Shown piece after piece: positions 19,599 to 36,727 of a DNA stretch of 64,000 nt; positions within the stretch are counted from its first letter, which is position 1, and each line of letters starts with the position of its first letter. A model generated the notes under the pieces. The model saw nothing but the letters and a program-made list of their open reading frames with translations. It made no database searches and had not been told where the DNA came from. The stretch is taken from NCBI GenBank assembly GCA_003151625.1, contig PLYC01000010.1, positions 133,515 through 197,514 of the forward strand, in the 5' to 3' direction. The translations under genes were made by a program, and so were the position numbers. This stretch comes from Candidatus Doudnabacteria bacterium. GTDB taxonomy: Bacteria > Patescibacteriota > Doudnabacteria > UBA920.

Positions 19599-19673
19599 TG
19601 GGGTGTCGCCAAGCGGTAAGGCAGGGGCCTTTGAAGCCCCCATTCGTAGGTCCGAATCCTACCACCCCAGCCA
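19599..19673 (+). tRNA. tRNA-Gln (anticodon UUG)
   Basis: Manual cloverleaf: acceptor TGGGGTG/CACCCCA (U1-A72 as in E. coli tRNA-Gln), D-arm GCC-AAGCGGTAA-GGC, anticodon arm GGGGC-CTTTGAA-GCCCC, T-arm GTAGG-TCCGAAT-CCTAC, G73, CCA. Confidence 0.8.
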
Positions 19674-19909
19674 TTAGTAAATAATTTATAAAGCATTGGC
19701 GTCGCTCGTCTCGGCTTCGCCGAGCCGAAGTCGGACCAAGCAGCCCGTCTCGGCCGAGGCTATCCGAATTAGCCGAGCCGAGGTCGGATAAGGCAGGGGC
19801 CTTTGAAGCCCCCATTCGTAGGTTCGAATCCTACCGCCCCAGCCAACAACTCTCTCATAATACCGGAGACCGAAGAGTATCAGCGTTTCAAGAGACAGTC
19901 AATGATTTT

Positions 19910-21737: not shown

Positions 21738-21772
21738 TTTGTTCGAACATCGTCCCACAGCCCCAGCCAACA
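21738..21772 (+). repeat. tRNA-3'-end-like direct repeat TTGTTCGAACATCGTCCCACAGCCCCAGCCA (second copy at 53915-53950)
   Basis: 24-nt identical core plus a CCAGCCA ending. The two copies bracket about 32 kb. Confidence 0.5.
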
Positions 21773-21918
21773 ATTTTGGTTCCTACAGACCTACCAACCC
21801 TGAACCAAAGTTACAAGTCTTAAGAAAATAAGAGCATGGATTTTGCATCCATGCTCTTATTTTTTTCTACATTCAGTAAAAATATGCTAAAATAAGGTCA
21901 TAATTTCAATAGAATTCT

Positions 21919-22914
21919 ATGAACAAAATATATCCGGAAAAATTAAAAGTTGGAGATGAAGTTAGAATTATAGCGCCTTCAAGATCGCTCGGCATTATCT
22001 CAAATAATTTAAGAGAGATAGCCAACCGCCGATTTAGGGATTTAGGGCTTAAAGTCAGTTTTGGCAAGCATGTTGAAGAAAAAGACGAGCTTGATTCTTC
22101 CGGTATAGAATCTCGCATTGAGGACTTGCATGAAGCGTTTGCCGACAAAAACATCAAAGCAATTTTTACCGTCATTGGCGGGTATAATTCCAACCAGTTG
22201 TTGAAGCATATTGATTGGCAATTGATAAAAAATAACCCAAAAATACTTTGTGGCTATTCTGATATTACAATCTTAAATAATGCTATTTACGCCAAGACCG
22301 GATTGATAAGCTACTACGGCCCGCATTATTCCACTTTCGGGCAGGAAAAGCACTTTGACTATACTTTGGATTACTGTAAAAAATGTTTGTTTTCTGACGA
22401 ACCGTTTGAAATTAAACCCAGCGAAAATTGGAGTGATGATTTTTGGTTTAAAGATCAAAACAACCGCACCTTCATTCCTAACGAAGGGTGGTTGGCAGTA
22501 AACGAAGGCGAAGCTGAGGGAACTATCCTCGGAGGTAATCTTTGCACTTTTAATTTGATACAAGGCACGGAATTTTTTCCAGATTTGAACGACAGTATTT
22601 TATGTTTGGAAGACGATGATTTACCAAAAGAAAATTCCGCTGTGGAATTTGACCGCAATCTGCAATCCTTAATTCAGCAACCAAATTTTGAAAAAGTCCA
22701 AGGTTTGGTCATTGGCAGATTCCAAAAAGGCAGCCAAATTACGAACGAAAAGATAAAACAAATTATAAAATCAAAAAAAGAGCTGGCTAATATGCCCATA
22801 ATTGCCAATGTCGATTTTGGCCACACCGATCCCAAAATAACCCTTCCAATTGGCGGAGAAATTCAGATTAAAGCGCATTTTCAGAATTCCCAAATAAACA
22901 TAACTAAACATTAA
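21919..22914 (+). CDS. LD-carboxypeptidase (peptidase S66; LdcA/MccF-like)
   Basis: VRIIAPSRSL, ILCGYSDITILNNAIY (Ser nucleophile) and a C-terminal His/Glu region. Confidence 0.8.
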   Translation: MNKIYPEKLKVGDEVRIIAPSRSLGIISNNLREIANRRFRDLGLKVSFGKHVEEKDELDSSGIESRIEDLHEAFADKNIKAIFTVIGGYNSNQLLKHIDWQLIKNNPKILCGYSDITILNNAIYAKTGLISYYGPHYSTFGQEKHFDYTLDYCKKCLFSDEPFEIKPSENWSDDFWFKDQNNRTFIPNEGWLAVNEGEAEGTILGGNLCTFNLIQGTEFFPDLNDSILCLEDDDLPKENSAVEFDRNLQSLIQQPNFEKVQGLVIGRFQKGSQITNEKIKQIIKSKKELANMPIIANVDFGHTDPKITLPIGGEIQIKAHFQNSQINITKH

Positions 22915-23055
22915 AGTTACCATTCAAGCAAAAAAATAAGGGCATGGACAAAAAATCCAAGCTCTTTTTTATCTAATGTTATTCCAAGTCTTTAAAATAT
23001 AGGACAATAGGGGTCGACGAGAGCCGGCCCCTATTTGGTTTGAGCGCCATTGCGC

Positions 23056-23508
23056 TCAGTTGATGGTGACGGGACGCAGCTCGAGGGGTTCCTGTTCGTA
23101 GGGAACGAAGAACGCTTTGGATCCCGCCACAGCTACGCCCTTTCCGGAAGTCCCGTCCGCCAAGGCGAGACCGATGTTGCAGCGGCAGCCTAATCCTGGA
23201 GTGGTGATGAGTTCGTGATACTGCTGAAAGGCCTCGCTCCACCTCTCCAGGACGATATGGTGACCGTGGTCGTCAGTGTAGACATTGACACCCTCTTCGT
23301 GCAGGAGGCGGAGAACGGCGTTCTCCACAACCTTGCCCGAGAAGGGCTTGTCCGCATTGATTACCAGGTGAAACAGGCGGCCGGTCATCCGGGCGCCGTT
23401 CATGATGATGGTTTCTGGGTTGCCGACAACGAACTTCGTATCCGGTTGGCCGGATCGTAAATGCATTGCCAGCGTTTCCGCAATCTGCCCTTGACGTTCT
23501 GTGAACAT
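23056..23508 (-). CDS. Hypothetical 150-aa protein of the high-GC island
   Basis: High-GC codon usage continuous with the island. No confident family; motifs VVGNPE and TDDHGHH noted. Confidence 0.45.
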   Translation of the reverse strand: MFTERQGQIAETLAMHLRSGQPDTKFVVGNPETIIMNGARMTGRLFHLVINADKPFSGKVVENAVLRLLHEEGVNVYTDDHGHHIVLERWSEAFQQYHELITTPGLGCRCNIGLALADGTSGKGVAVAGSKAFFVPYEQEPLELRPVTIN

Positions 23509-23544
23509 ACACGCTCCTTGGTTGGTTGTCGGTAACTTTCGGTA

Positions 23545-23754
23545 TTAGGCCGAGTGAACGCAGGTGCCGTCGGAATTGTAGGCATAAACTTCAATGCCGA
23601 CGCCGCGGTTGGTGTGAGCGATGTCATCGATCTCCCGTTGGCTTAACGGTGCGTTGTAGTCGCCAATAAAGAAATCTTCGCCATGCTCGTGCCCGATGAA
23701 ACGGATCTTACCATCCGGAGCCTTGGGCTCCGTATCTGACTTTCGGAATAGCAT
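23545..23754 (-). CDS. Hypothetical 69-aa protein of the high-GC island
   Basis: ORF upstream of the 150-aa gene in the same transcription unit. An AT-rich promoter spacer precedes it. Confidence 0.35.
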   Translation of the reverse strand: MLFRKSDTEPKAPDGKIRFIGHEHGEDFFIGDYNAPLSQREIDDIAHTNRGVGIEVYAYNSDGTCVHSA

Positions 23755-23904
23755 GATTCCTCCCCCTTTGCAAATTTATATCGCACGTTTCAAAACATAT
23801 TTATAAACTCTGTGAACCGTAAAATAATGAAAATACTACTTACTGAGAAAATGATCTTGGTTTGAAATAATTATATACCTATTCAATAAATAAAAACAAC
23901 CTGA

Positions 23905-23945
23905 AAAAATCAACCCGGCGCGTCCTCCTTTGCGCCGGGCGTGGT
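23905..23945 (-). terminator. Terminator after HisRS-like paralog 1 (CCCGGCGC-loop-GCGCCGGG + T-run on the minus strand)
   Basis: Seen directly. Confidence 0.6.
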
Positions 23946-23959
23946 TGAAGAACAACAAC

Positions 23960-25285
23960 TTAAACCTCCTGGAGCACCTGCCCCAGGGCATTCCGGACAT
24001 CGGCCTCGAAAGCGGAGCGGCATTCGAGGGCGTGGGTGAGGGTGGCTTCTTTGCCGCTGACGCAGACCACCAACTGGCATCCGCGGAGTTTGGCCTGTTC
24101 TACCGCTCCCGCGGAGGAAAGCGGGTCGTAGCTCAGGTCAACGTTGATGCCAGCATTGCGAAGCTGCTGGGCGAATCGGAAAGCCATGGCTGTACTGTCG
24201 TTATTGCCGCAGTACGCTACCAGGACTTTATCCGGAAGGACAAGCTCGGATTTGAGCATGTCCAATTCCTTCATGACTGCAAGGATGCGGTCGAGGCCGA
24301 AGGCCATGCCGACCGCCGGTTCAGGCGGAGCGCCGAAAGCGCCCACCAGATTGTCGAATCGGCCACCGCCGAGTACCGCGCCGATTGGCACGCCGGGAAT
24401 CACTCCTTCCAGAATGAAACCGGTGTAATAGTCGGCGCCGCGAGCCAACGTAAGGTCGATTCTGACGTGAGATAGCACTTCGTCGGGCAGATAAGAGAAA
24501 ATCTCCCGGAGCTCAGCGATGCCGGTTAATCCGGCCGGCTGGTCGTGAAGATTGTCTTGAAGGTGTTGAAGCATGTCTTCGAGCGAGCCGGAAATAGCGA
24601 TGACGCCCATAATGCTTTCTATCAGGGCGCTGCCAACCCGGCGGCGTTTCAGGTCTTCGCGAATCCCTTCCAGGCCTGCCTTGGTCACCTTGTCGGCGTA
24701 ATCCATAGCGCGTTGCACCTTGAGGATGCCGTCTTTGCCGGTGATACCGGCGCGGGCAGCAATGGCCTGGATGATCATGCGATGATTGACGCGGATGACG
24801 AACTGCCGGAAACCGAGGTCGCAAAGGCCGCGGTATGCTACGGAGATAATATCAGCGTCAGCCAGAAGGCTGGAAGCGCCAATGATGTCCCCATCGCATT
24901 GCATAAACTCGCGGAAGTGCCCCTTGTCCGGTTTGTCATCGCGAAACACATAGCCGAACTGATACCGCTTGTAGGGGCGGGGCAGGTCGGGGTGCATGCT
25001 GGCTACGCGAGCCAGCGGTACCGTTAGGTCGTAGCGGAGAACGAGACGGTGTTTCTTGTTGTCTCCCAGGCGGAAGATGAGCTTCTCGCCCTCGCCGTGG
25101 TGGCCGTCAAATACGACCTCGTTCTCGATGGTGGGGGTATCGTGGGGAGTGAAACCGCTCTTCTCGTAGACAGAACGGAGAATACGGATAACGTAATCAC
25201 GCACCCGCATTCCAAGCCCCAGCTTGTCAGTAGTGCCCGGAGGGACGGCGTTCTTAAGCCGAGACCGGGTCTGTGGATGACCCAT
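23960..25285 (-). CDS. Divergent class-II HisRS-like paralog 1 (full length with anticodon-binding-like domain)
   Basis: Altered motif 2 RDDKPDKGHFREFMQCDGDIIG, histidine-binding ARGADYYTG, motif 3 LGGGRFDNL and a C-terminal alpha/beta ABD-like region. Confidence 0.8.
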   Translation of the reverse strand: MGHPQTRSRLKNAVPPGTTDKLGLGMRVRDYVIRILRSVYEKSGFTPHDTPTIENEVVFDGHHGEGEKLIFRLGDNKKHRLVLRYDLTVPLARVASMHPDLPRPYKRYQFGYVFRDDKPDKGHFREFMQCDGDIIGASSLLADADIISVAYRGLCDLGFRQFVIRVNHRMIIQAIAARAGITGKDGILKVQRAMDYADKVTKAGLEGIREDLKRRRVGSALIESIMGVIAISGSLEDMLQHLQDNLHDQPAGLTGIAELREIFSYLPDEVLSHVRIDLTLARGADYYTGFILEGVIPGVPIGAVLGGGRFDNLVGAFGAPPEPAVGMAFGLDRILAVMKELDMLKSELVLPDKVLVAYCGNNDSTAMAFRFAQQLRNAGINVDLSYDPLSSAGAVEQAKLRGCQLVVCVSGKEATLTHALECRSAFEADVRNALGQVLQEV

Positions 25286-26621
25286 TGTTTGCGCTCTCCT
25301 TGGCGCGGATGAGGCTAATAGCCTCTTTGGTGCTCACGTTGCTGGTTTGTCCTGTGGACATATCCTTGAGGGAAACATAGCCGCCGGCGACTTCGTCGTC
25401 GCCGATCACGATGATGAAAGGAATTCCCAGCCGGCTGGCGTAGGTTACCTTTTTTTTCAGCTTGGCATCATCGAAGTATACGGCCGTAGGTATGCCGCCT
25501 TCGCGCAACTCGGTAGCTGCCTGCAAAGGAACGCGGAGATCGGAAGTTTGCGGAATGACCAGCACTATAGCGGGCGTTGCGGATTTGGGAGTAATGATGC
25601 CCGCTTCGCGAAGCTGGTAAAACAGCCTGGTCAGGCCAATGGAAATTCCGACGCCGGGCAACTGTTTGTTGGTATAGTACCCAGCCAGGTCGTCGTAACG
25701 TCCGCCCGAACAGACACTGCCGATGCCGGGGTAGTCATTCAGCACCGTTTCGTACACGGTGCCCGTGTAATAGTCGAGGCCGCGGGCGATTGTCAGGTCA
25801 ATAGCGTAATTCTGCCCGGGAACCCCAAGCGCCGAGACGTAGGAAATTACCTTCTCCAATTCGTCGACGCCGGTATGGAAAGTGCCGTTGCTGATCTGCA
25901 TCTGCTTGAGCTGGGAGAGGATGGCGGCCGTGTCGCCTGTCAATCCGATGAACGCAAGAACTTCGCGCGCCGCATTGGGTGGCGCTCCTAGACCGGCCAA
26001 CTCCTGCTGAACTGCTTCCTGCCCGGCTTTCTCCAGCCTGTCGACCGAACGGAGGATGTCCGCGGCCTGGCTGGCAAGTCCGAGCGATTCGAAGAAGCCG
26101 TTCAGAATCTTGCGATTGTTGATTTTGATGGTGAAGCGGGAAAAGCCGAGCGCCGTAAAGGTTGCGTAGATGACGCTGGGAATTTCCGCGTCGTTTAGCA
26201 AACTCAAAGCGCCGTCGCCGATGATGTCGATGTCGCACTGGTAGAATTCCCGGAAACGGCCTCTCTGCGGCCGCTCTCCGCGGAACACTTTTCCGATGTG
26301 GTAGCGCCGGAAAGGAAACGCGAGGTCCGGATAGTGCTGCGCTACATAGCGGGCCAACGGAACCGTGAGATCAAACCTCAAGGCCAAATCGCTGTCGCCC
26401 TTGGTGAAGCGGTAAATCTGCTTTTCGGTCTCACCGCCCGCCTTGGCCAAAAGCACTTCGGCCAATTCGATGACGGGGGTATCTAGCGGAATGAACCCGA
26501 ACCGTTCATAGCTTTTCTGGATTACTCCCAACATGCCGTTGAACAGCATTTGGTCTGCCGGGAGCAGTTCCATAAAGCCGGAAAGGATCCGGGGGGTGAC
26601 TTTACTTGGATTGTTGTTCAT
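25254..26621 (-). CDS. Class-II HisRS-like paralog 2 (more canonical)
   Basis: Motif 2 FRGERPQRGRFREFYQCDIDIIG, ARGLDYYTG, CSGGRYDDL and ABD region AIVLVIP...IPFIIVIGDDE. Its 3' end overlaps paralog 1 by 32 nt. Confidence 0.8.
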   Translation of the reverse strand: MNNNPSKVTPRILSGFMELLPADQMLFNGMLGVIQKSYERFGFIPLDTPVIELAEVLLAKAGGETEKQIYRFTKGDSDLALRFDLTVPLARYVAQHYPDLAFPFRRYHIGKVFRGERPQRGRFREFYQCDIDIIGDGALSLLNDAEIPSVIYATFTALGFSRFTIKINNRKILNGFFESLGLASQAADILRSVDRLEKAGQEAVQQELAGLGAPPNAAREVLAFIGLTGDTAAILSQLKQMQISNGTFHTGVDELEKVISYVSALGVPGQNYAIDLTIARGLDYYTGTVYETVLNDYPGIGSVCSGGRYDDLAGYYTNKQLPGVGISIGLTRLFYQLREAGIITPKSATPAIVLVIPQTSDLRVPLQAATELREGGIPTAVYFDDAKLKKKVTYASRLGIPFIIVIGDDEVAGGYVSLKDMSTGQTSNVSTKEAISLIRAKESANNGSSTDPVSA

Positions 26622-26875
26622 AATATTTGATCAATCCTCCTGCATGGTACAAACTACGGAATGACTGGCTCCATAATTCTGCCAATCGATGGTAAAGAAC
26701 AAACAAGCTCATCCTTATTGCACGGATAAACTTATCGTATTACTATAAATCAATTTAGCTTATATTGTCAAGGAGATTGGGTTTGGCCAGAGAAGCCCCT
26801 GACAAAATTTTTTAACTTGATTTTATTGGATAAATAATATATATAAAAGTCGAGTGAACTGTAAAAAAAGATATC

Positions 26876-26920
26876 CGGGCAGCTCCTAAGAGGAACTGCC
26901 CGGAAGATAAAACCTTTGCC
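26876..26920 (-). terminator. Terminator after the MIO-lyase gene (CCGGGCAG...CTGCCCGG + T7 on the minus strand)
   Basis: Seen directly. Confidence 0.6.
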
Positions 26921-26933
26921 AAACGGCTCGGGT

Positions 26934-28589
26934 CTAAGTGGTCAACGCGTTGCAGGCTGACTGCATCAGACTTCCGTCTGCCAGCATGCCCTCGACTGCG
27001 TCCAACTCGGCCTTGAGATACCGGTCATCAAACCAGGTCTGGTGGCCTTTTGCCGTTTCCTTCTGGAATACGCCGCGGATGTGGCCGTAAGCCTCGCTCG
27101 TTCCGAGCCCGAGCTGCTGGAGGTTTTCCGGCAGCAAATGCTGAGTGAGGGTGATCCCTTGCGACGCCATGAACAGTTCGGCGGCAAGCACGCGACGGAT
27201 GATCGGCAGCATGGAGCGAACTTTGAGAGCGCTGTTCATTCCCATGCTCACCCAGTCTTCCTGGTCTGCCGAGGTCGTGATCGAATGAGTCGAGCAGGGA
27301 TTGGCCAGAAGCGCAATCTGATTCACCAAGGAGGCAACCCCATATTGCACGATCATCAGGCCGGTATTGGCCGTATTGGGACCGGCAAGATCCGCAGGCA
27401 AACCGTAGCTTAACCTGGGAGTAGTCAGAGCGAAACCTCGCCGGTCACTGGCGCCGGCAAGCGGCGTCAGGGCTATTGCGAGGTAATCCAGCGGCGCCGC
27501 CAAAGGCTGACCGTGAAAATTGCCGCCTGAAATGGCTATGTATTGCGCGCCGTTCTCATCATCCTCGAACACCAGAGGATTGTCGGTTGCCGAGTTGAGT
27601 TCGACTTCGAGAATCGATTCCAGATGAGAAAGTGCTTGGTATGCCGCCGCATGAATCTGGGGCGCACAGCGGAACGAGTAAGCGTCCTGAACGCGGGGAA
27701 CCTGCTTGCCGTGGCTAAACTTCTTCTGTTCGTCCGGAAAGGCTACGGATCTGGCTTCTTCCGTAATTCTCCTGGATCCTTCGGTAAACTTCCTGATGCG
27801 CGCCGCGGAATGAACCTGACCGGGTAATGGCCTGGCTTCATGGATGCGGGCATCGAAAGCGTTCTGTTCTCCGCGAATAGCCTCTAAAGACAAGGCCGTA
27901 GCGAGGTCGGCGGTTTCCAAGAGAATCCAGCCGTCCACTACCGCAAGACACGCAATTGCCGCAATGAAGTTGGCGCCGTTTGTCAGTGCCATGGCTTCTT
28001 TGGCCGCAAGCGTGAGGGGTTTGAGGCCGTGGTTTTCAAGAACTGTTCTGGCCGGTTGAATTTCGCCCGCCACGAACATTTGACCTTCCTCAAGGCCGAT
28101 TATGCCCGCGGACATGTGAGCCAAGGGAATTAAATCTCCCGAGGCGCCCACCGATCCGAACTCAGGGACTACCGGGGTAAGCCCCAAATTCAGGCAATCG
28201 CGGAGCCTTTCAATCAGGCAAGGTCGCACGCCGGAGTGACCCTTCAAAAAGTTGTTCAGCCGAACAAGCATGGCTGCTCGGGTGACTTCGGGTGAAAGCG
28301 GGTTCCCATAGCCGCAGCAATGGGCCGGGATATAACGCATCTGGTAATCGGACAGTTCGTCCGACGGCAACACTTGGTTCTTGCGGGAGCCACAGCCGGT
28401 ATTGACACCGTACATGATGTCTCCACGGATAGCGGCGGCTTCGAGTCCTTGACGGAAACGTTCGATTTTCGCAAACGTCTCGGGGTTGATCTGAACCTCG
28501 TGATGATGTCTGGCCACGGCTATAACCTGTTCAGTGGTTAAGCTGTGACCGTCTACCTCCACGATTCTCTGCGTAAGCATAGATTTCAC
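26934..28589 (-). CDS. MIO-dependent aromatic amino-acid ammonia-lyase/aminomutase family protein (HAL/PAL-like)
   Basis: Ala-Ser-Gly MIO triad in GSVGASGDLIPLAHM, plus YGVNTGCG and a selectivity-region A-H (IPAHCCGYG) resembling the HAL S-H. 551 aa. Confidence 0.85.
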   Translation of the reverse strand: MKSMLTQRIVEVDGHSLTTEQVIAVARHHHEVQINPETFAKIERFRQGLEAAAIRGDIMYGVNTGCGSRKNQVLPSDELSDYQMRYIPAHCCGYGNPLSPEVTRAAMLVRLNNFLKGHSGVRPCLIERLRDCLNLGLTPVVPEFGSVGASGDLIPLAHMSAGIIGLEEGQMFVAGEIQPARTVLENHGLKPLTLAAKEAMALTNGANFIAAIACLAVVDGWILLETADLATALSLEAIRGEQNAFDARIHEARPLPGQVHSAARIRKFTEGSRRITEEARSVAFPDEQKKFSHGKQVPRVQDAYSFRCAPQIHAAAYQALSHLESILEVELNSATDNPLVFEDDENGAQYIAISGGNFHGQPLAAPLDYLAIALTPLAGASDRRGFALTTPRLSYGLPADLAGPNTANTGLMIVQYGVASLVNQIALLANPCSTHSITTSADQEDWVSMGMNSALKVRSMLPIIRRVLAAELFMASQGITLTQHLLPENLQQLGLGTSEAYGHIRGVFQKETAKGHQTWFDDRYLKAELDAVEGMLADGSLMQSACNALTT

Positions 28590-28774
28590 TCCTAAACCGA
28601 GATTTCAACTGTACTGAGACTTAGAACAGACAACCCAAAAATAGGTGCGTTGATGTTATTTTTCCTCCAAATTCAAGGCAAAACAAACAACTCAACCCTT
28701 TGAGCGGTCTGGTCTGTGCTATATGCATATACCTTTTAACACCCTTCTGTCAAGGGCTTAAATAAAAGAGTTTT

Positions 28775-29374
28775 TTATCTACGCTTACCGACTTCGTCCG
28801 TAATATTTTTAAAAGAGATATCTTTTTCTGCCAGTAAAACGAACAGGTGGTAAATTAAATCCACAGTTTCCTCAATTAATCTGGGTTTGGTTTGTTTTTG
28901 CGCTGCGTGTACAACTTCGAGTGCTTCCTCGGCCACTTTTAGGGAAATTTTGTCCAAACCAGCTTTGAATAAAGAGGCTGTATAGGATTTTTTTGGCATC
29001 TTTAATTTTCGCTCCTGGATTACGCTGAACAACTCCAATAATTTGTTGGGGTCAAAATTTTCTTTAAAACAGGAATAAGCACCCGTATGGCACGTCGGAC
29101 CTACCGGTTTGGCTTTAATTAGTATTGCGTCGTTATCACAGTCTAACTTTATATCAACAAGGTTTAAGATGTTCTTGCTGGTTTCGCCTTTCATCCAGAG
29201 CCGCTGTTTGCTTCGGCTATAAAACCAAACTTTTTTTGTCTTTAAAGTTTTGGCGAAAGATTCCTTATTCATATAACCCAGCATCAAAACAGCGGACGTG
29301 TCGGCATCTTGAATGACGGCCGGTACCAGACCTTGACTTTTTGTCCAATTTATTTTTTTGATTAAATTTTTCAT
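28775..29374 (-). CDS. hisIE: Bifunctional phosphoribosyl-AMP cyclohydrolase / phosphoribosyl-ATP pyrophosphatase
   Basis: N-terminal HisI ([18 protein letters not shown]) and C-terminal HisE helices. Confidence 0.85.
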
Positions 29375-30855
29375 AAGCGTATTGGTATGTTATTAGTTGA
29401 TAAATAATTTTTAACCTGGCTGACGCTAAATTGTCCATAATGGAACAAACTTGCTACCAATGCCGCGTCTGCCTTGCCCTCGGTAAAAGCCAATTTTAAA
29501 TCTTCCAAAGATCCGGCGCCGCCTGATGCGATAACAGGGATTTTTACCGCTTCCGAAACTTTTTTCAAAAGCTCTAAATCATAACCTGATTTTGTGCCGT
29601 CCTTATCCATAGAGGTCAATAAAATTTCTCCCGCTCCTCTTTTTTCAGCTTCTTTGGCCCAGTCGATTGCGTTTAATGAAGTTTCATCGCGGCCGCCCTT
29701 TAGAAATACTTTATATACGCCATCCTTCTTTTTTGCGTCAATTGCTACCACCACGCATTGCCGGCCAAAAGCAAGCGCTGCTTCGGAAATAAATTCGGGG
29801 TTAAGCACGGCCGTGGTATTAATGGAAATTTTGTCAGCGCCTAATTGCAATAATTTGCGAATATCATCAACGGTCTTAATTCCGCCCCCAACGGTGAAAG
29901 GTATAAAGACCTCTTTGGCCACCTGGGCTACCATGTCAAATAACGTCTGCCGATTCTCATGCGACGCGGTAATGTCAAGAAAGACCAGCTCGTCAGCGCC
30001 TTCTTCAGAATACCTGCGACCCAAGGCTACCGGGTCGCCCGCATCCCTCAGGTTTACAAAAGATACGCCCTTAACCACCCTGCCGTCTTTAACGTCCAAG
30101 CAGGGAATAATTCGTTTGGTTAAGTTTGATACAGGTGTTTGAAAATTTAAAGCCTCAGCCAACGTTAGCCTATTTTCATACAAAGCTTTGCCCAAAATGG
30201 CGCCAAAGGCACCCAATGTATTTATTTTTTTCAGAGATTTTAAATCGGAAATTCCTCCGGACGCTATAACATTAAACCCCAAATTTATCAGTTCTTTTAA
30301 AACTATAAAATTTGGCTCGGTTAGGCTGCCGTCTTTTTCCACGTCCGTAAACAAGATTTCGGTTATCCCAAGGGTTTTAAGTTCTTTGGCAAAATCCAAA
30401 TAATTTTTATCAACGGTTTCCTGCCACCCTTTTATCGCAATTTTGCCTTTTTTAATTTCCAGCGCTACTACTATTCGCTTGCTGCCGAACTCTTTAATTA
30501 AAGATGATAATAGGCCAAAATCCGTTAATGCTTTGGTGCCTAAAACAGCACGCCGCACGCCGGAATTTAAATATTTTTGCGCGGTACTTATATCGCGGAT
30601 CCCTCCGCCGACTTCTATGGGAATTTTGACAGCCTTACAAATTTTGGTAATCAGTTCCTGGTTGACCGGCACTCCTGTTTTAGCCGCATCCAAATCAATA
30701 ATATGAAGCATGGCCGCCCCTTGCCGCTCAAAGTCTTGGGCCACGCCTAAAGGATCGGAAGAATAAATTTTTTTCGTGGAAAATTCTCCCTTAGTTAACC
30801 TTACACATTTGCCGTCAATAATGTCTATCGCGGGAATAATTAACATAAATCGCAA
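29371..30855 (-). CDS. hisAF: Fused HisA-HisF protein (ProFAR isomerase + IGP synthase cyclase subunit)
   Basis: The first ~240 aa are HisA-like ([27 protein letters not shown]). The last ~250 aa are HisF-like ([44 protein letters not shown]). Continuous 494-aa ORF. Confidence 0.85.
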
Positions 30856-33526: not shown

Positions 33527-34818
33527 AAATTTTTCTTGAATCTTATACTTACGGCATTTTTGTGGGCATCAAGGCCTTCTTTTGCAGCCAGGACTTCAAC
33601 CGTGGTTCTTAAATTTTTAATTCCTTCTTTGGTGACTTGTTGAATTTGCATTTTCTTTCCAAAAGATTCTACGGAAAGCGCCGAGAACATTTTAGCATAA
33701 CCGGAGGTAGGCAAGGTGTGATTACTGCCTGTGGCGTAATCTCCCAAAGGCTCGCTGGAATAATTTCCCAAAAATACCGAACCCGCGTTGTTTATTCTTT
33801 TCAGTATGGCATTCTCGTTCTTACAAACTATTTCCAAGTGCTCGGGAGCATAATCGTTAATTAAATCACAAGCTTCCGTTATGGTTTTTGTGATAATAAT
33901 AAAGCTGTTTTTTAAAGACTGCCGCACAATCTGCAACCGGAAAAGTTGCTCGGCCTGTTTTAAAACTTGATCGTAAACCTGTTTTGCCAAAGTTTCGGAT
34001 AAAGTAACCAAAATCGCCTGAGAGTCTTCGCCGTGTTCTAACTGCGAAAGCAGATCCGCGGCAATCCAATCCGGGTCAGCGCTTTCGTCCGCTAAGGCTA
34101 AAACCTCGGAAGGGCCAGCCGGCATATCTATATCCACCTCTCCATATACCATCATTTTTGCAGTGGTAACGTATTGATTCCCGGGACCAAAAATTTTTGA
34201 TACTTTAGGTATGGACTCTGTACCGTAAGCCATGGCCGCAACAGCCTGTGCCCCGCCTACTTTAAAAATTTTTGATATACCGCACAAATCAGCTGCTATC
34301 AGTACCGCGCTTGGAACCTTTCCTTCTTTGTTCGGAGGCACGCAAAGCACAATTTCTTTACAACCGGCAATTTTTGCGGGAATGGCTAACATTAAAACCG
34401 TGGAAGGATAAGCCGCCTTTCCGCCGGGAATATAAAGGCCAACCTTTTCAATCGGGCGAAATTCCCGCCAGATTTGGACGCCTTTGGCGGTTGTGACTTT
34501 TTGTTCCTTAATTTGCACGTTGCTTTTGTGAAATTTTTCAATGTTAGTTTTAGCTACTTTTAGCGCCTTAACCAATTCCTTACTTTCTTGTTTATAAGCC
34601 GTAGCTATTTCTTGTTTAGAGACCGCTAGGACTTTTAAATCCGCCCCTTCAAATTTTTTAGTAAAAGCAAAAAGCGCTTTGTCTTTATTTTTTCGGACAT
34701 CGCCAATTATTTTACTTACTACCGCCTCTACATTTGTTTTTTTGCTTTGCCTTTCCCGGATCAAATTCAGTATAGTTTGAAAGGAATATTGCTTTGTAGA
34801 TATAATTTTCATAAACAT
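33523..34818 (-). CDS. hisD: Histidinol dehydrogenase
   Basis: Typical HisD length and motifs ([22 protein letters not shown]). Confidence 0.9.
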
Positions 34819-35438
34819 TAATTAATACCGCACTTGGATAAGAATTTTGCTTTGGCCTGCTTATTAATCGGGCTTTCGATTAATACGGCTTGGGATTCTA
34901 ATATCGTGAATAACGGCACCAAATTATGCGCTTTTAAAGTAGTGCCGGTTTGCACTATATCGCAAATAGCGTCTGCCAGGTTCAAATCTGGCGTTATTTC
35001 CACGGAACCGGAAATGGGAATTATGGCCGCCTCAAGCTTCTCTTTTTTTAAATAGTCGGTAAGCAGTTTTGGATAGGAAGTGGCGATTCTTTCTCCTTCC
35101 AAATCCTTGGAGGTTTTTATAACGGAGTCTGCCGGAGCCGCTATCATCAGCCTGCATTTGCCAAAATCAAACTTTTTTAATATTTTCGGTTCAAATTCTT
35201 TTTCCGCGAGGACATTTTGTCCCACAATGCCAAAATCCGCCACGCCCCGGCTCACGTATTCCGGAATATCATCGTCCCTAAGATATAATACATCAAGGTC
35301 AAAATTTTGACAGGGCAGAATTAGCGAATGCCCGTTTGGAGCAAAAGTCAGCCCGCAAGAAACAAGGAAGTCCATACTGCCCTGATTCAGCCGGCCGCTT
35401 TTTTGAACGGCAATTCTTAGTCTTTCCGGAGTTTTCAT
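34818..35438 (-). CDS. hisG: ATP phosphoribosyltransferase, short form
   Basis: 206 aa short HisG (LRIAVQKSGRL). Overlaps the upstream HisRS gene by ATGA. Confidence 0.9.
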   Translation of the reverse strand: MKTPERLRIAVQKSGRLNQGSMDFLVSCGLTFAPNGHSLILPCQNFDLDVLYLRDDDIPEYVSRGVADFGIVGQNVLAEKEFEPKILKKFDFGKCRLMIAAPADSVIKTSKDLEGERIATSYPKLLTDYLKKEKLEAAIIPISGSVEITPDLNLADAICDIVQTGTTLKAHNLVPLFTILESQAVLIESPINKQAKAKFLSKCGIN

Positions 35439-36727
35439 AATGAGCTATATCCTTTAAAGTAATTAATAATCTGGTCCTGCGGTATAGTTTTTTGCTTGCC
35501 GGTCTTCATCATTTTAATGGTTACCTCGCCGCGTTCCTTTTCGTCCGATCCGCACATAACAACAAAAGGTATGCTTTTTTTGTCCGCGTATTTTAATTGT
35601 TTCGCAATTTTGGCCGGTTCAAAATAAATTTCCGCTTTTAACCCAGCCGTCTGTATATCACCCAAAATTTTAAGTGAATCCGGCAAGGTGTCCGCGTCAA
35701 AATATGCTACTAATGCCTGCGAATTTAAGCTTATTTCGTCAAGCAGTTTAAGTTGTTCCATCGCTACAATAATACGGTCAAATCCAAAGGCAACGCCCAC
35801 CCCGCTGAATTTTTCAGGGCAAAAAAGTGAGCACAGGTCGTCATACCTGCCTCCGGCGCAAACGGCTCCAATGTCCACTTCCGGTATGTAAACTTCAAAA
35901 ATAACGCCGGTATAATAATCCAGACCCCGCGCCAGACTGGGATCAAAAACCAAAACTTCATCCGGAATTCCAAACCCCTTTGCAATTTTTAAAAACTCCT
36001 GGATTTCAGTAATGTTATATTTTTGAAATAAGTTTAATCTTTCGTTTGAACTGCCTTCTACGCACACTAATTCCAATAATTTTGAAACCTCGGAGTCAGA
36101 AGCTAAAGACTTAAGCTCCTGTTTGATTTCGGCAGGGCTTAACTTATCCATTTTATCCAATATCCTAATCATCCCTGCCTGATTCTCGGCCGGGATTTTT
36201 AGGTCGTTCAAAATACTGTTAATCAATCTGCGGCTGTTAAATTTAATTTTAAACTTGGAAAAGCCCAAGGTAGTAAAAACTTCGGCCATTACTTTGGCGA
36301 TTTCGGCTTCAGCCACCAGGCTCTGTGTGCCGATAATATCTATGTCGCACTGGTAAAATTCCCTATATCTGCCTTTTGCCGGCCTGTCAGCCCGCCAAAC
36401 TCTTCCAATCTGGTACCGCTTAAAAGGCATTGGTAAAGTTTTGTAGTTGGCGGCCACCACTCTGGCAAAGGGGACGGTTTGATCATAACGCAGGCAAATA
36501 TCTCTGTCGCCATTATCCTTAAAACGGTAAACTAGTTTGGATCCCTCTTCGCCATACTTGCCTAATATTGTTTCCGCGTATTCAATTGCCGGAGTTTCGA
36601 TGGCATCGTAGCCAAACTTTGTAAACACAGTTTTAATTTTTTCCAAAACATAATCTCTCTTTGCCATTTGTTCGGGCAAAAAGTCCCTTGTTCCCTGTAA
36701 TATTTTTGGTTCAATAAATTGGTTCAT
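35435..36727 (-). CDS. hisS: Histidyl-tRNA synthetase (catalytically intact), translationally coupled to short hisG; possible dual HisS/HisZ role
   Basis: Motif 2 WRADRPAKGRYREFYQCDIDIIG, ARGLDYYTG, motif 3 GGRYDDL and a complete anticodon-binding domain. Confidence 0.85.
   Translation of the reverse strand: MNQFIEPKILQGTRDFLPEQMAKRDYVLEKIKTVFTKFGYDAIETPAIEYAETILGKYGEEGSKLVYRFKDNGDRDICLRYDQTVPFARVVAANYKTLPMPFKRYQIGRVWRADRPAKGRYREFYQCDIDIIGTQSLVAEAEIAKVMAEVFTTLGFSKFKIKFNSRRLINSILNDLKIPAENQAGMIRILDKMDKLSPAEIKQELKSLASDSEVSKLLELVCVEGSSNERLNLFQKYNITEIQEFLKIAKGFGIPDEVLVFDPSLARGLDYYTGVIFEVYIPEVDIGAVCAGGRYDDLCSLFCPEKFSGVGVAFGFDRIIVAMEQLKLLDEISLNSQALVAYFDADTLPDSLKILGDIQTAGLKAEIYFEPAKIAKQLKYADKKSIPFVVMCGSDEKERGEVTIKMMKTGKQKTIPQDQIINYFKGYSSL

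What the first reader, a model, noticed from the sequence alone, without database searches (positions are those of the whole stretch)
23960..26621. Two tandem, overlapping HisRS-like paralogs; one has a remodelled motif 2
Paralog 2 keeps canonical motifs (FRGERPQRGRFREF, GGRYDDL, full anticodon-binding domain). Paralog 1 keeps the histidine-binding DYYTG and motif 3 GGGRFDNL, but its motif 2 is RDDKPDKGHFREF (ER to DK, GRYR to GHFR) and its N-terminal G-TRD-LP block is altered. The genes overlap by 32 nt, which suggests translational coupling, and share a terminator. This pattern fits neofunctionalised aaRS paralogs such as amino-acid ligases or aa:carrier-protein ligases rather than redundant tRNA charging. 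It differs from known HisZ, which is shorter and lacks the anticodon-binding domain.
Basis: partly seen in the sequence, partly recalled or inferred. Interest (0 to 1): 0.85.

Follow-up and report, generated by a model that had tools for sequence, protein, structure and literature searches.

The report
HisRS operon with undescribed HisRS-like paralog
A horizontally acquired two-gene operon pairs an ordinary histidyl-tRNA synthetase with a member of a widespread, apparently undescribed HisRS-like family that keeps the histidine/ATP site, has lost the tRNA-contact residues and sits beside peptidase-type hydrolases, which suggests a non-translational use of activated histidine.

Summary
Two minus-strand genes (25254-26621 and 23960-25285) overlap by 32 nt and form a bicistronic unit with its own promoter-like site and terminator. 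They lie in a ~57% GC island within a ~40% GC Candidatus Doudnabacteria genome, just 3' of the native his operon.

The upstream gene is an ordinary HisRS of the Nostoc 3net/Clostridia type. The downstream gene belongs to a sharply defined family I call 'FRDD'. Its motif 2 is [FYW]RDDxxDxGH[FY]REF, and it also has GHHGEGEK and RGADYYTG. I found no dedicated Pfam or NCBIfam model and no paper for it.

- The family keeps every histidine/adenylate-site residue checked.
- It replaces the invariant motif-2-loop Arg (E. coli R121) with His and Q118 with Asp.
- Its C-terminal domain has lost the anticodon-binding hallmarks.

In most lineages a HisRS gene lies immediately upstream. An MccF-like S66 or an M42 peptidase was present in 26 of 47 FRDD loci and in 0 of 80 control HisRS loci. 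Other loci have a Pip-like hydrolase, an EamA transporter or a HAL-like lyase instead.

My best reading, unproven, is a tRNA-independent histidine-activating ligase whose histidyl-X product is cleaved or exported by these neighbours. It is not HisZ.

The parts
23960..25285 (-). Paralog 1: FRDD-family HisRS-like protein (441 aa). Its histidine/ATP site is intact, its motif-2 loop is remodelled (D116, D120, H123) and its C-terminal domain is degenerate.
25254..26621 (-). Paralog 2: canonical histidyl-tRNA synthetase (455 aa) of the Nostoc 3net/Clostridia subtype, with an anticodon-binding domain.
25254..25285 (-). 32-nt overlap between the stop of paralog 2 and the start of paralog 1, with AGGAG about 10 nt before the ATG. 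Translational coupling is likely.
26742..26771 (-). Promoter-like site TTGACA-18-TATAGT (11 of 12 matches) about 120 nt upstream of paralog 2.
23903..23940 (-). Intrinsic-terminator-like hairpin (9 G+C-rich pairs, 10-nt loop) plus U-tract after paralog 1.
26934..28589 (-). MIO-type aromatic amino acid lyase, HAL-like but below the hutH cut-offs. It is a separate transcription unit in the same high-GC island. Relatives are neighbours of FRDD genes in 4 other lineages.
26874..26904 (-). Terminator-like hairpin (14 pairs) after the lyase gene.
21919..22914 (+). MccF-like S66 peptidase (331 aa), convergent with the island and at host-like GC. It is in the same family as the S66 genes that follow FRDD genes elsewhere.
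23056..23754 (-). Two high-GC orphan ORFs (69 aa, 23545-23754; 150 aa, 23056-23508) at the end of the island. No family was found and their role is unknown.

Best explanation
Proposed mechanism. Paralog 2 is a working HisRS. Paralog 1 (the FRDD family) is a tRNA-independent histidine-activating enzyme. It binds histidine and ATP and makes histidyl-adenylate as HisRS does. Its remodelled motif-2 and ordering loops then pass the histidyl group to an acceptor other than the tRNA CCA end, most likely an amine, giving a histidyl-amide 'His-X'. The neighbouring hydrolases (MccF-like S66, M42 or Pip-like S33) are of kinds whose characterised members cleave peptide or aminoacyl-amide bonds, so they would cleave His-X. 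In Firmicutes an EamA transporter would export it instead.

What is shown: the family's existence, its residue pattern, purifying selection, the operon structure and the gene linkage.

What is inferred: adenylate formation, the non-tRNA acceptor and the role of the hydrolases.

The two-gene operon reached this Doudnabacteria genome by horizontal transfer as one block.
For: 1. The family is sharply defined.
- All of the 120 best database hits checked carry the family motifs. Most match [FYW]RDD..D.GH[FY]REF, RGADYYTG and GGGR[YF]D.L.
- At 50%-identity clustering there are about 17 representative clusters.

2. Residues of the His-AMP site are invariant across 30 diverse members. These are R115, R125, Q129, D131, D133, D86, T88, R282, Y286, Y287, G306-R309 and G326...R333. 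A pure regulator such as HisZ has not kept these residues (established knowledge).

3. tRNA-contact residues are replaced.
- E. coli R121 (T. thermophilus R120) is described as invariant and as recognising C74 (PMC4357726). It is Arg in all 93 comparison HisRS and His in every family member.
- Q118, which contacts C73 and the backbone (PMC10100707, PMC4357726), is Asp in 97% of members.
- The C-terminal domain keeps its fold (AF2 pLDDT 89.8).
- That domain shows only 26% pairwise identity against 63-68% in the core, and it lacks the K/K/Q, G..E, K and Q hallmarks kept in HisRS.

4. Selection: dN/dS is 0.11 for paralog 1, against 0.09 for its partner, at equal dS.

5. Linkage to hydrolases and transporters.
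- 47 FRDD loci (441 kb) hold 14 S66, 12 M42, 4 Pip-like, 2 EamA and 5 HAL genes. 80 ordinary HisRS loci (1031 kb) hold 0 S66, 0 M42 and 1 HAL.
- Three lineages sampled afterwards all had HisRS, FRDD and either M42 or S66.
- The S66 genes are MccF-like, with best PDB match B. anthracis BA_5613 at E = 1e-122.

6. EamA and FRDD overlap as a two-gene unit in Anaeromicropila, and lie 36 nt apart in Lysinibacillus.
Against: - No acceptor or product is identified, and no carrier protein, amine-forming enzyme or target protein is consistently linked.
- R121 also binds the ATP gamma-phosphate in E. coli HisRS (my recollection of the Arnez et al. structures, not checked here), so the His replacement could weaken ATP use.
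- R125, the G-1 phosphate contact, is retained, so some RNA binding is not excluded.
- A synthetase and a hydrolase for the same product in one locus needs an extra rationale, such as turnover, immunity or recycling.
- The tight, often overlapping coupling to a real HisRS gene is not explained by a free-standing ligase.
- Several loci (HAL, amino acid permeases, tRNA-His nearby) fit a histidine-supply or regulatory theme equally well.
Confidence: 0.38

Rival explanations
1. Regulatory or sensor subunit. The FRDD protein does not transfer histidine. It binds histidine with ATP, or His-AMP, as a signal. Alone or as a heterodimer with the co-translated HisRS, it tunes tRNA-His charging or histidine supply and use (peptidase, HAL, permeases). 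The logic is HisZ-like but with a different partner.
For: - The HisRS-to-FRDD gene order, with overlaps of 4-35 nt or gaps of 2-25 nt, occurs in most lineages. This is typical of subunits made in equal amounts.
- Motif 1, the dimer interface, is conserved.
- The pair shows equal dS, so it was co-inherited.
- Neighbours include HAL, two amino acid permeases and tRNA-His genes.
- There is precedent in HisZ (PMC9437257).
Against: - A sensor of histidine alone would not need the invariant ATP and adenylate-chemistry residues R115, R282 and R333.
- FRDD genes also occur without an adjacent HisRS: UvrB-FRDD-S66 in L099, and EamA-FRDD in Lysinibacillus and Anaeromicropila.
- FRDD derives from a different HisRS subtype than its partner, so interface compatibility is untested.
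Confidence: 0.2
2. Immunity module against a histidyl-adenylate-mimicking toxin. The locus would combine an extra HisRS copy, hydrolases that split aminoacyl-nucleotide analogues (MccF-like S66, other peptidases, HIT, RimL-like GNAT) or an exporter. FRDD would act as a decoy or detoxifying binder of the His-AMP analogue.
For: - The S66 neighbours are MccF-like.
- L005 and L087 add HIT genes, and L005 adds a RimL-like acetyltransferase. From my own knowledge, these correspond to the three known microcin C immunity activities (MccF, MccH, MccE/RimL).
- Peptidases of another family are also reported to confer McC resistance (bioRxiv 10.1101/2022.03.27.485901, abstract seen).
- The alternative pairing with either a hydrolase or an exporter fits toxin removal.
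- A decoy would not need the gamma-phosphate or tRNA contacts.
- The module is prone to horizontal transfer, since its GC is above that of the host locus in many cases.
Against: - To my knowledge no natural HisRS-directed aminoacyl-nucleotide antibiotic is known.
- Relaxed constraint would not produce invariant new residues (D116, D120, H123, H62, H63).
- PADLOC and the plasmid and phage collections gave nothing.
- In several small genomes the adjacent HisRS looks like the housekeeping copy (L106: infB-rbfA-tRNAs-hisS).
Confidence: 0.15
3. Paralog 1 is still a tRNA-His synthetase, acting as a backup, stress-induced or inhibitor-resistant isoform that binds the acceptor end in an altered way.
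For: - It scores 283 bits on the hisS model against a cut-off of 286.75.
- The full HisRS fold, including the C-terminal domain, is present.
- R125, the G-1 contact, is retained.
- tRNA-His genes lie within a few kb in 4 of 30 loci.
- There is precedent in the second HisRS of histidine decarboxylase clusters (title and term counts of PMC4122935, plus my own knowledge).
Against: - The otherwise invariant motif-2-loop Arg is lost, the Q118 equivalent is Asp, and the anticodon-domain hallmarks are lost.
- The nearby tRNA-His genes are standard, with encoded G-1 and C73, so no altered tRNA explains the changes.
- A canonical HisRS is already encoded in the same operon.
Confidence: 0.12
4. Paralog 1 is HisZ, the regulatory subunit of short-form ATP phosphoribosyltransferase, as NCBI annotation names it.
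For: - NCBI names the 98%-identical protein 'ATP phosphoribosyltransferase regulatory subunit'.
- The window has a short-form hisG (206 aa) and no hisZ.
- The island lies at the 3' end of the his operon.
Against: - It scores 185 bits on TIGR00443 against a cut-off of 271.65.
- The catalytic residues are retained, unlike HisZ.
- Apart from the window-type loci (L001 and its 98%-identical relatives L088-L090), none of the FRDD loci whose neighbours were annotated or clustered showed a hisG. hisG itself was not searched for.
- The position upstream of hisG is already taken by the native hisS.
Confidence: 0.03

Closest known systems
HisZ (HisRS paralog, regulatory subunit of short-form HisG)
   Same: It is a bacterial HisRS-derived paralog that is not the housekeeping synthetase, and current annotation pipelines give paralog 1 this name.
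   Different: HisZ has lost the adenylation residues, is encoded with hisG and lacks a C-terminal domain. FRDD keeps the adenylation residues and a degenerate C-terminal domain, fails the HisZ model cut-off, and is linked to hisS and peptidases rather than hisG.
EpmA/PoxA (GenX) with EpmB
   Same: EpmA is a class II aaRS paralog that still makes an aminoacyl-adenylate but transfers it to a non-tRNA amine (Lys34 of EF-P). In the window an amino-acid-modifying enzyme gene, the MIO lyase/mutase family member, lies next door.
   Different: EpmA is LysRS-derived, lacks the anticodon domain and has a known protein target. The MIO neighbour here looks like a histidine ammonia-lyase and is present in only 5 of about 26 lineages. 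No target is known.
AsnA and amino acid:[carrier protein] ligases
   Same: They are class II aaRS catalytic-domain homologues that use the adenylate for amide or thioester formation without tRNA.
   Different: They derive from AspRS/AsnRS or SerRS. aa:CP ligases sit beside carrier-protein genes, and none was seen in the neighbours annotated here.
GCN2 HisRS-like domain
   Same: It is a HisRS-derived module reused outside aminoacylation.
   Different: The pattern of loss is the opposite. GCN2 keeps tRNA and ribosome binding and has lost histidine/ATP chemistry. FRDD keeps the chemistry and has lost the tRNA contacts.
Second HisRS of histidine decarboxylase (hdc) clusters
   Same: It is an extra HisRS gene linked to a histidine-catabolic enzyme. 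Paralog 2 next to a HAL-like lyase resembles this.
   Different: Those are canonical synthetases. In the plasmid search, Tetragenococcus records were among the hits, all below 60% identity and the best 25 rows at 36% or less. I did not confirm that these hits are hdc-cluster genes. They have no FRDD-type partner as far as seen.
MccF (microcin C immunity peptidase, S66)
   Same: The S66 neighbours of FRDD genes, including window gene 21919-22914, are MccF-like (best PDB match BA_5613, 'MccF-like'). MccF cleaves the aminoacyl-amide bond of aminoacyl-nucleotide analogues.
   Different: No microcin-like biosynthetic genes are present. Substrate specificity is untested. The S66 gene is replaced by M42 or S33 peptidases in other lineages.

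Membership tests
Histidine--tRNA ligase (HisRS), paralog 2 | Scores above the curated hisS model cut-off and has an anticodon-binding domain. | tested here: met
   TIGR00442 gives 391.6 bits against a cut-off of 286.75. PF03129 matches at 7.5e-14.
Histidine--tRNA ligase (HisRS), paralog 2 | Canonical motif-2 loop (equivalents of Arg116, Gln118, Arg121, Arg123), HisA/HisB motifs and motif 3. | tested here: met
   The protein has FRGERPQRGRFREF, RGLDYYTG, SGGRYDDL and GVGISIGLTR. It is 60-65% identical to the hisS genes of Ruminiclostridium, which lie in hisS-aspS loci.
Histidine--tRNA ligase (HisRS), paralog 2 | Aminoacylates tRNA-His. | not testable with these tools
   This needs an enzyme assay.
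Histidine--tRNA ligase (HisRS), paralog 1 | Scores above the curated hisS model cut-off. | tested here: not met
   It scores 283.2 bits against a cut-off of 286.75, which is marginal.
Histidine--tRNA ligase (HisRS), paralog 1 | Invariant motif-2-loop Arg (Ec R121 / Tt R120) and Gln (Ec Q118), which contact C74, C73 and the backbone. | tested here: not met
   H123 and D120 occupy these positions throughout the family. Arg is present in 100% of 93 comparison HisRS. The residue roles come from PMC4357726 and PMC10100707.
Histidine--tRNA ligase (HisRS), paralog 1 | Conserved anticodon-binding domain residues. | tested here: not met
   The fold is present, but the hallmark K/K/Q, G..E, K and Q positions are not conserved, and pairwise identity is 0.26 against 0.63-0.68 in the core.
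Histidine--tRNA ligase (HisRS), paralog 1 | Residues of the histidine and adenylate site (motif 2 Arg, HisA Arg, YY, GGGR, motif 3 Arg). | tested here: met
   These residues are invariant in A1 and in the 131-sequence alignment.
HisZ | Scores above the TIGR00443 cut-off. | tested here: not met
   It scores 185.1 bits against a cut-off of 271.65.
HisZ | Encoded with short-form hisG. | tested here: not met
   Apart from the window-type loci (L001 and its near-identical relatives L088-L090), no hisG appeared among the annotated or clustered neighbours of the FRDD loci. hisG was not searched for directly. In the window, hisG lies about 10 kb away and is preceded by the native hisS.
HisZ | Has lost the adenylation residues and has no C-terminal anticodon-type domain. 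| tested here: not met
   The residues are retained and a C-terminal alpha/beta domain is present.
Amino acid:[carrier protein] ligase | Adjacent phosphopantetheinyl carrier protein gene. | tested here: not met
   No carrier-protein family appeared among the neighbours that were annotated. The 69-aa ORF in the window got no PADLOC hit. It was not scanned against Pfam here, but the precomputed table lists no Pfam family for the identical gene.
EpmA/EpmB-type protein aminoacylation system | aaRS paralog plus an aminomutase that makes a beta-amino acid, with a defined protein target. | tested here: inconclusive
   An MIO-family gene is adjacent in 5 lineages only. It is most like histidine ammonia-lyases. 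No target is known.
MccF-type S66 peptidase (window gene 21919-22914) | S66 N- and C-terminal domains, and closer to MccF-like proteins than to LdcA. | tested here: met
   PF02016 and PF17676 both match. PDB hits are 4e5s 'MccF-like BA_5613' at E = 1e-122 and MccF 3gjz at 1e-48, against LdcA-type at about 1e-19. The LdcA model scores 116 bits against a cut-off of 378.

The most novel reading that the evidence does not exclude
The FRDD family is a new class II aaRS-derived ligase that attaches histidine, without tRNA, to an amine. The acceptor would be either a small metabolite, giving a secreted or turned-over histidyl-amide, or a protein side chain, giving an EpmA-like 'histidylation'. The linked MccF-like, M42 or Pip-like hydrolases would act as erasers. 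This would be a second bacterial HisRS paralog function after HisZ.
Probability: 0.3. Interest if true: 0.85.

Novelty: new variant of a known kind. Interest (0 to 1): 0.68.

Why it matters
The one review I checked for this point (PMC9437257, 2022) lists HisZ as the only bacterial HisRS paralog. This family is widespread: it appears in CPR bacteria, human gut metagenome contigs, Firmicutes such as Lysinibacillus and Anaeromicropila, and contigs with alphaproteobacterial markers. It is under purifying selection and has a reproducible gene neighbourhood. Databases nevertheless label it 'histidine--tRNA ligase', 'ATP phosphoribosyltransferase regulatory subunit' or 'hypothetical'.

If it is a tRNA-independent histidine ligase or a histidine/His-AMP sensor, it adds a new branch to the list of aaRS paralog functions. 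It would also correct many annotations and inflated counts of 'duplicate HisRS'. The family is directly testable because cultivable hosts exist. The linkage to MccF-like peptidases would also give a first physiological context for the BA_5613-type S66 enzymes.

Tried and rejected
- **Dedicated partner clade.** A first tree suggested that the adjacent HisRSs form their own co-evolving clade. Adding 120 close relatives of paralog 2 showed that housekeeping hisS genes, such as Ruminiclostridium's in relA-dtd-MBL-hisS-aspS loci, nest inside it. I dropped the idea. The MBL-fold and RelA/SpoT neighbours (L007, L125) are probably the usual hisS neighbourhood rather than partners of FRDD.
- **GCN2-like link to RelA.** This rested on one lineage only and is explained by the point above.
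- **Unusual tRNA-His.** The four nearby tRNA-His genes all have encoded G-1 and C73.
- **T-box or riboswitch control.** Rfam found none in the window or in 25 related loci.
- **Anti-phage defence.** PADLOC gave no hit apart from one chance-level match for the 150-aa ORF. The FRDD DNA pattern was absent from viral contigs.
- **Plasmid-borne resistance gene.** tblastn against plasmids returned no hit at 60% identity or above, and the best 25 rows were 36% or less, mostly annotated hisS.
- **The 150-aa island ORF.** Its only hit among 5.8 billion proteins was a 97%-identical protein, with no wider family.
- **Genome-collection scan with the family alignment.** The scan chose general HisRS peptides and returned mostly ordinary HisRS. 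I reused those loci as the control set.
- **Assembly chimera as the cause of the GC jump.** The same junctions occur in five assemblies.
- **Literature.** Searches on HisRS paralogs, MccF plus HisRS, aaRS-like ligases and Patescibacteria found nothing describing this family.


Full report
**1. What is in the window**

On the minus strand, ORF 25254..26621 (455 aa, 'paralog 2') is followed by ORF 23960..25285 (441 aa, 'paralog 1'). They overlap by 32 nt. Both match the HisRS catalytic-domain model.
- Paralog 2 passes the curated hisS model (391.6 bits, cut-off 286.75) and has a clear anticodon-binding domain.
- Paralog 1 falls just below the cut-off (283.2 bits) and has only a weak anticodon-domain hit.
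- The two proteins are 35% identical.

The pair is a transcription unit of its own.
- A 14-bp terminator hairpin follows the upstream lyase gene.
- A TTGACA-18-TATAGT site lies about 120 nt before paralog 2.
- GGAGG precedes the ATG of paralog 2 and AGGAG precedes the ATG of paralog 1.
- A 9-bp G+C hairpin with a U-tract follows paralog 1.

The genes lie in a block of about 55-60% GC (about 22950-28600) within a roughly 40% GC genome. The block holds five genes:
- a HAL-like MIO lyase;
- the two HisRS-like genes;
- two orphan ORFs of 69 and 150 aa.

It starts right after hisIE, the last gene of a native operon: hisS-hisG(short)-hisD-hisC-hisB-hisH-hisAF-hisIE. The host is Candidatus Doudnabacteria. 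The same junctions are present in five independent assemblies, so this is horizontal acquisition and not a chimera.

**2. Paralog 2 is an ordinary HisRS**

- Its best solved relative is Nostoc HisRS 3net (E = 8e-105).
- It has thousands of relatives at 60-65% identity, named histidine--tRNA ligase in Ruminiclostridium, other Clostridia, Acidobacteria and Deltaproteobacteria.
- In Ruminiclostridium josui that gene sits in the housekeeping locus apt-relA-dtd-MBL-radical SAM-hisS-aspS (similar).
- All canonical motifs are present.

**3. Paralog 1 belongs to a distinct, conserved family**

All of the 120 best database hits (44-98% identity) share family signatures. Most match the following, and a few are close variants:
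- [FYW]RDDxxDxGH[FY]REF in motif 2;
- RGADYYTG;
- GGGR[YF]DxL;
- an N-terminal IPxGTxD.

At 50%-identity clustering, 17 of the best 150 representatives carry the signature or a close variant (16 strictly). Above about 285 bits nearly every hit carries it; ordinary HisRS begin to appear from about 315 bits and dominate below about 280.

I compared 37 family members with 23 partner HisRS and 70 other bacterial HisRS of the archaeal/eukaryote type.
- Retained and invariant:
  - R115, the motif 2 Arg;
  - R125, equivalent to E. coli R123;
  - Q129, D131 and D133;
  - D86 and T88;
  - R282, the HisA catalytic Arg;
  - Y286 and Y287;
  - G306-R309;
  - G326...R333 of motif 3.
- Family-specific and (nearly) invariant:
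  - D116, where the others have A or G;
  - D120, which is Q in partner HisRS and the commonest residue (51%) in the other comparison HisRS, equivalent to E. coli Q118;
  - H123, where the others have Arg in 100% of sequences, equivalent to E. coli R121 / T. thermophilus R120;
  - H62-H63 plus a one-residue deletion in the loop after motif 1, where the others have K-Y;
  - A284, A303, L305, A328 and F329.

In the T. thermophilus HisRS-tRNA complex, Gln117 contacts the A71/C72 backbone and the 'invariant Arg120' reads C74 (PMC4357726). In E. coli HisRS, Q118 and R123 recognise C73 and G-1 (PMC10100707). The family has therefore swapped two acceptor-end contacts for an acid and a histidine, while keeping the histidine/adenylate chemistry.

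The AF2 model is confident (pLDDT 89.8, pTM 0.88) and is a full HisRS fold including a C-terminal alpha/beta domain. That domain is the fastest-evolving part, with 0.26 pairwise identity against 0.63-0.68 in the core. The ratio is about 0.4, compared with about 0.6-0.66 in real HisRS. It also lacks the residues conserved in HisRS anticodon-binding domains.

The gene is under purifying selection. Against the 81%-identical homologue, dN/dS is 0.11 for paralog 1 and 0.09 for its partner, at the same dS of about 1.05-1.11.

**4. The pair is conserved but is not a recent duplication**

A DNA-pattern scan for the family motif in metagenomes, plus other look-ups, gave 47 loci in about 26 lineages. 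In most of them a canonical-motif HisRS gene lies immediately upstream on the same strand. The genes overlap by 4-35 nt or are separated by 2-25 nt with a Shine-Dalgarno sequence.

FRDD proteins form one clade. They are more similar to archaeal/eukaryote-type HisRS (0.42-0.45 identity in the core; best PDB 6nhi) than to their 3net-type partners (0.36-0.39). The two genes therefore come from different HisRS subtypes that became linked.

My first impression of a dedicated, co-evolving partner clade did not survive. Once close relatives of paralog 2 were added, housekeeping hisS genes nested within the partner radiation.

**5. The strongest functional clue is the neighbourhood**

Counts from tblastn with representative queries:

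| Neighbour | 47 FRDD loci (441 kb) | 80 ordinary HisRS loci (1031 kb) |
|---|---|---|
| S66 peptidase | 14 | 0 |
| M42 aminopeptidase | 12 | 0 |
| Prolyl-aminopeptidase-like S33 | 4 | 0 |
| EamA transporter | 2 | 0 |
| HAL-like lyase | 5 | 1 |

- Three lineages sampled after this pattern was seen all showed HisRS-FRDD plus M42 or S66.
- In Anaeromicropila the EamA transporter gene overlaps the FRDD gene. In Lysinibacillus the two genes lie 36 nt apart.
- The S66 proteins are MccF-like. The window's own S66 gene (21919-22914, convergent, host-like GC) matches B. anthracis 'MccF-like' BA_5613 at E = 1e-122 and is 47% identical to an FRDD-linked S66.
- Occasional extras are HIT genes and a RimL-like GNAT, two amino acid permeases after HAL, and standard tRNA-His genes.

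**6. Interpretation**

Four things together best fit a class II paralog that still activates histidine but hands it to a non-tRNA acceptor:
- an intact His-AMP site;
- lost tRNA contacts;
- new invariant acidic and histidine residues in the two active-site loops;
- recurrent pairing with peptidases, or with an exporter.

Characterised members of these peptidase families cleave peptide or aminoacyl-amide bonds, and I assume they share the ability to release an aminoacyl group. The neighbours would hydrolyse or export the histidyl-X product. Adenylate formation, the acceptor and the hydrolase substrates are all inferences. I put this reading at about 0.38.

Rivals:
- a histidine/His-AMP-sensing regulatory subunit of the co-translated HisRS (0.20), supported by the tight coupling;
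- an immunity module against a His-AMP mimic (0.15), supported by the MccF/HIT/RimL-type neighbours but lacking any known toxin;
- a still-functional but atypical tRNA-His synthetase (0.12);
- HisZ (0.03), which fails its model cut-off, its residue pattern and its hisG linkage.

**7. Comparison with known systems and novelty**

The 2022 review I consulted lists HisZ as the only bacterial HisRS paralog. I found no dedicated Pfam or NCBIfam model and no paper for this family. It resembles EpmA, AsnA and aa:carrier-protein ligases in logic, but it is HisRS-derived and has no identified acceptor. I rate it a new variant of a known kind, namely aaRS paralogs with non-canonical roles. It is of real interest to the aaRS field and is directly testable in cultivable hosts.

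Noticed in passing
window 34818-36727 (-): The native, canonical hisS (430 aa; 404 bits on TIGR00442, with an anticodon domain) overlaps a short-form hisG (206 aa) by 4 nt and occupies the position where hisZ normally sits. No hisZ is present in the window. Short-form HisG normally needs HisZ, so this HisRS might double as the regulatory subunit, or a hisZ lies elsewhere in the genome. Another Doudnabacteria contig (L080) has the orthologous hisS without the his operon.
   Followed up: partly
window 29371-30855 (-): One 494-aa ORF carries two His_biosynth domains, which is an apparent hisA-hisF fusion. In one sister assembly (L088) only a 255-aa product is called there.
   Followed up: no
window 19617-19673, 19789-19845, 21753-21773 (+): The 3' part of tRNA-Gln is repeated 172 nt downstream (57 nt, 96% identity). 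Its last 21 nt recur again at 21753-21773 (90%). The repeats bracket a glycosyltransferase, a GNAT and a 141-aa ORF. They look like att-site remnants of integration at tRNA-Gln, right next to the S66 gene and the high-GC island.
   Followed up: partly
window 23056-23754 (-): Two high-GC ORFs (69 and 150 aa) with their own terminator lie at the end of the island. For the 150-aa ORF, the only hit in 5.8 billion proteins was a 97%-identical protein. Neither ORF had a Pfam family on record, and PADLOC gave only one chance-level hit for the 150-aa ORF.
   Followed up: yes
window 26934-28589 (-): The HAL-like MIO enzyme scores below both hutH cut-offs. It reads A-H where histidine ammonia-lyases have S-H. 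Relative to the closest solved HAL (7tqr) it carries a 17-residue insertion (AFPDEQKKFSHGKQVPR). Its substrate and its lyase-versus-mutase activity are untested.
   Followed up: partly
L088-L091, between hisIE and the lyase gene: Sister strains (98% identical FRDD protein) carry a small TrpR-family repressor gene between hisIE and the lyase gene. It is missing in the window, where only about 185 nt separate the two genes.
   Followed up: no
L007 (CAZJSD010000022.1): This contig is labelled Muribaculaceae, but it has 26% GC and a Firmicutes-like relA-...-MBL-hisS synteny. The MAG label may be wrong.
   Followed up: no
L005 3041-4948 and 12313-14050: Near one FRDD gene lie an EamA transporter, an LPG_synthase_C (aminoacyl-tRNA-dependent transferase family) gene, a RimL-like acetyltransferase and a HIT hydrolase. 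All of these are families that handle aminoacyl or adenylate compounds.
   Followed up: no
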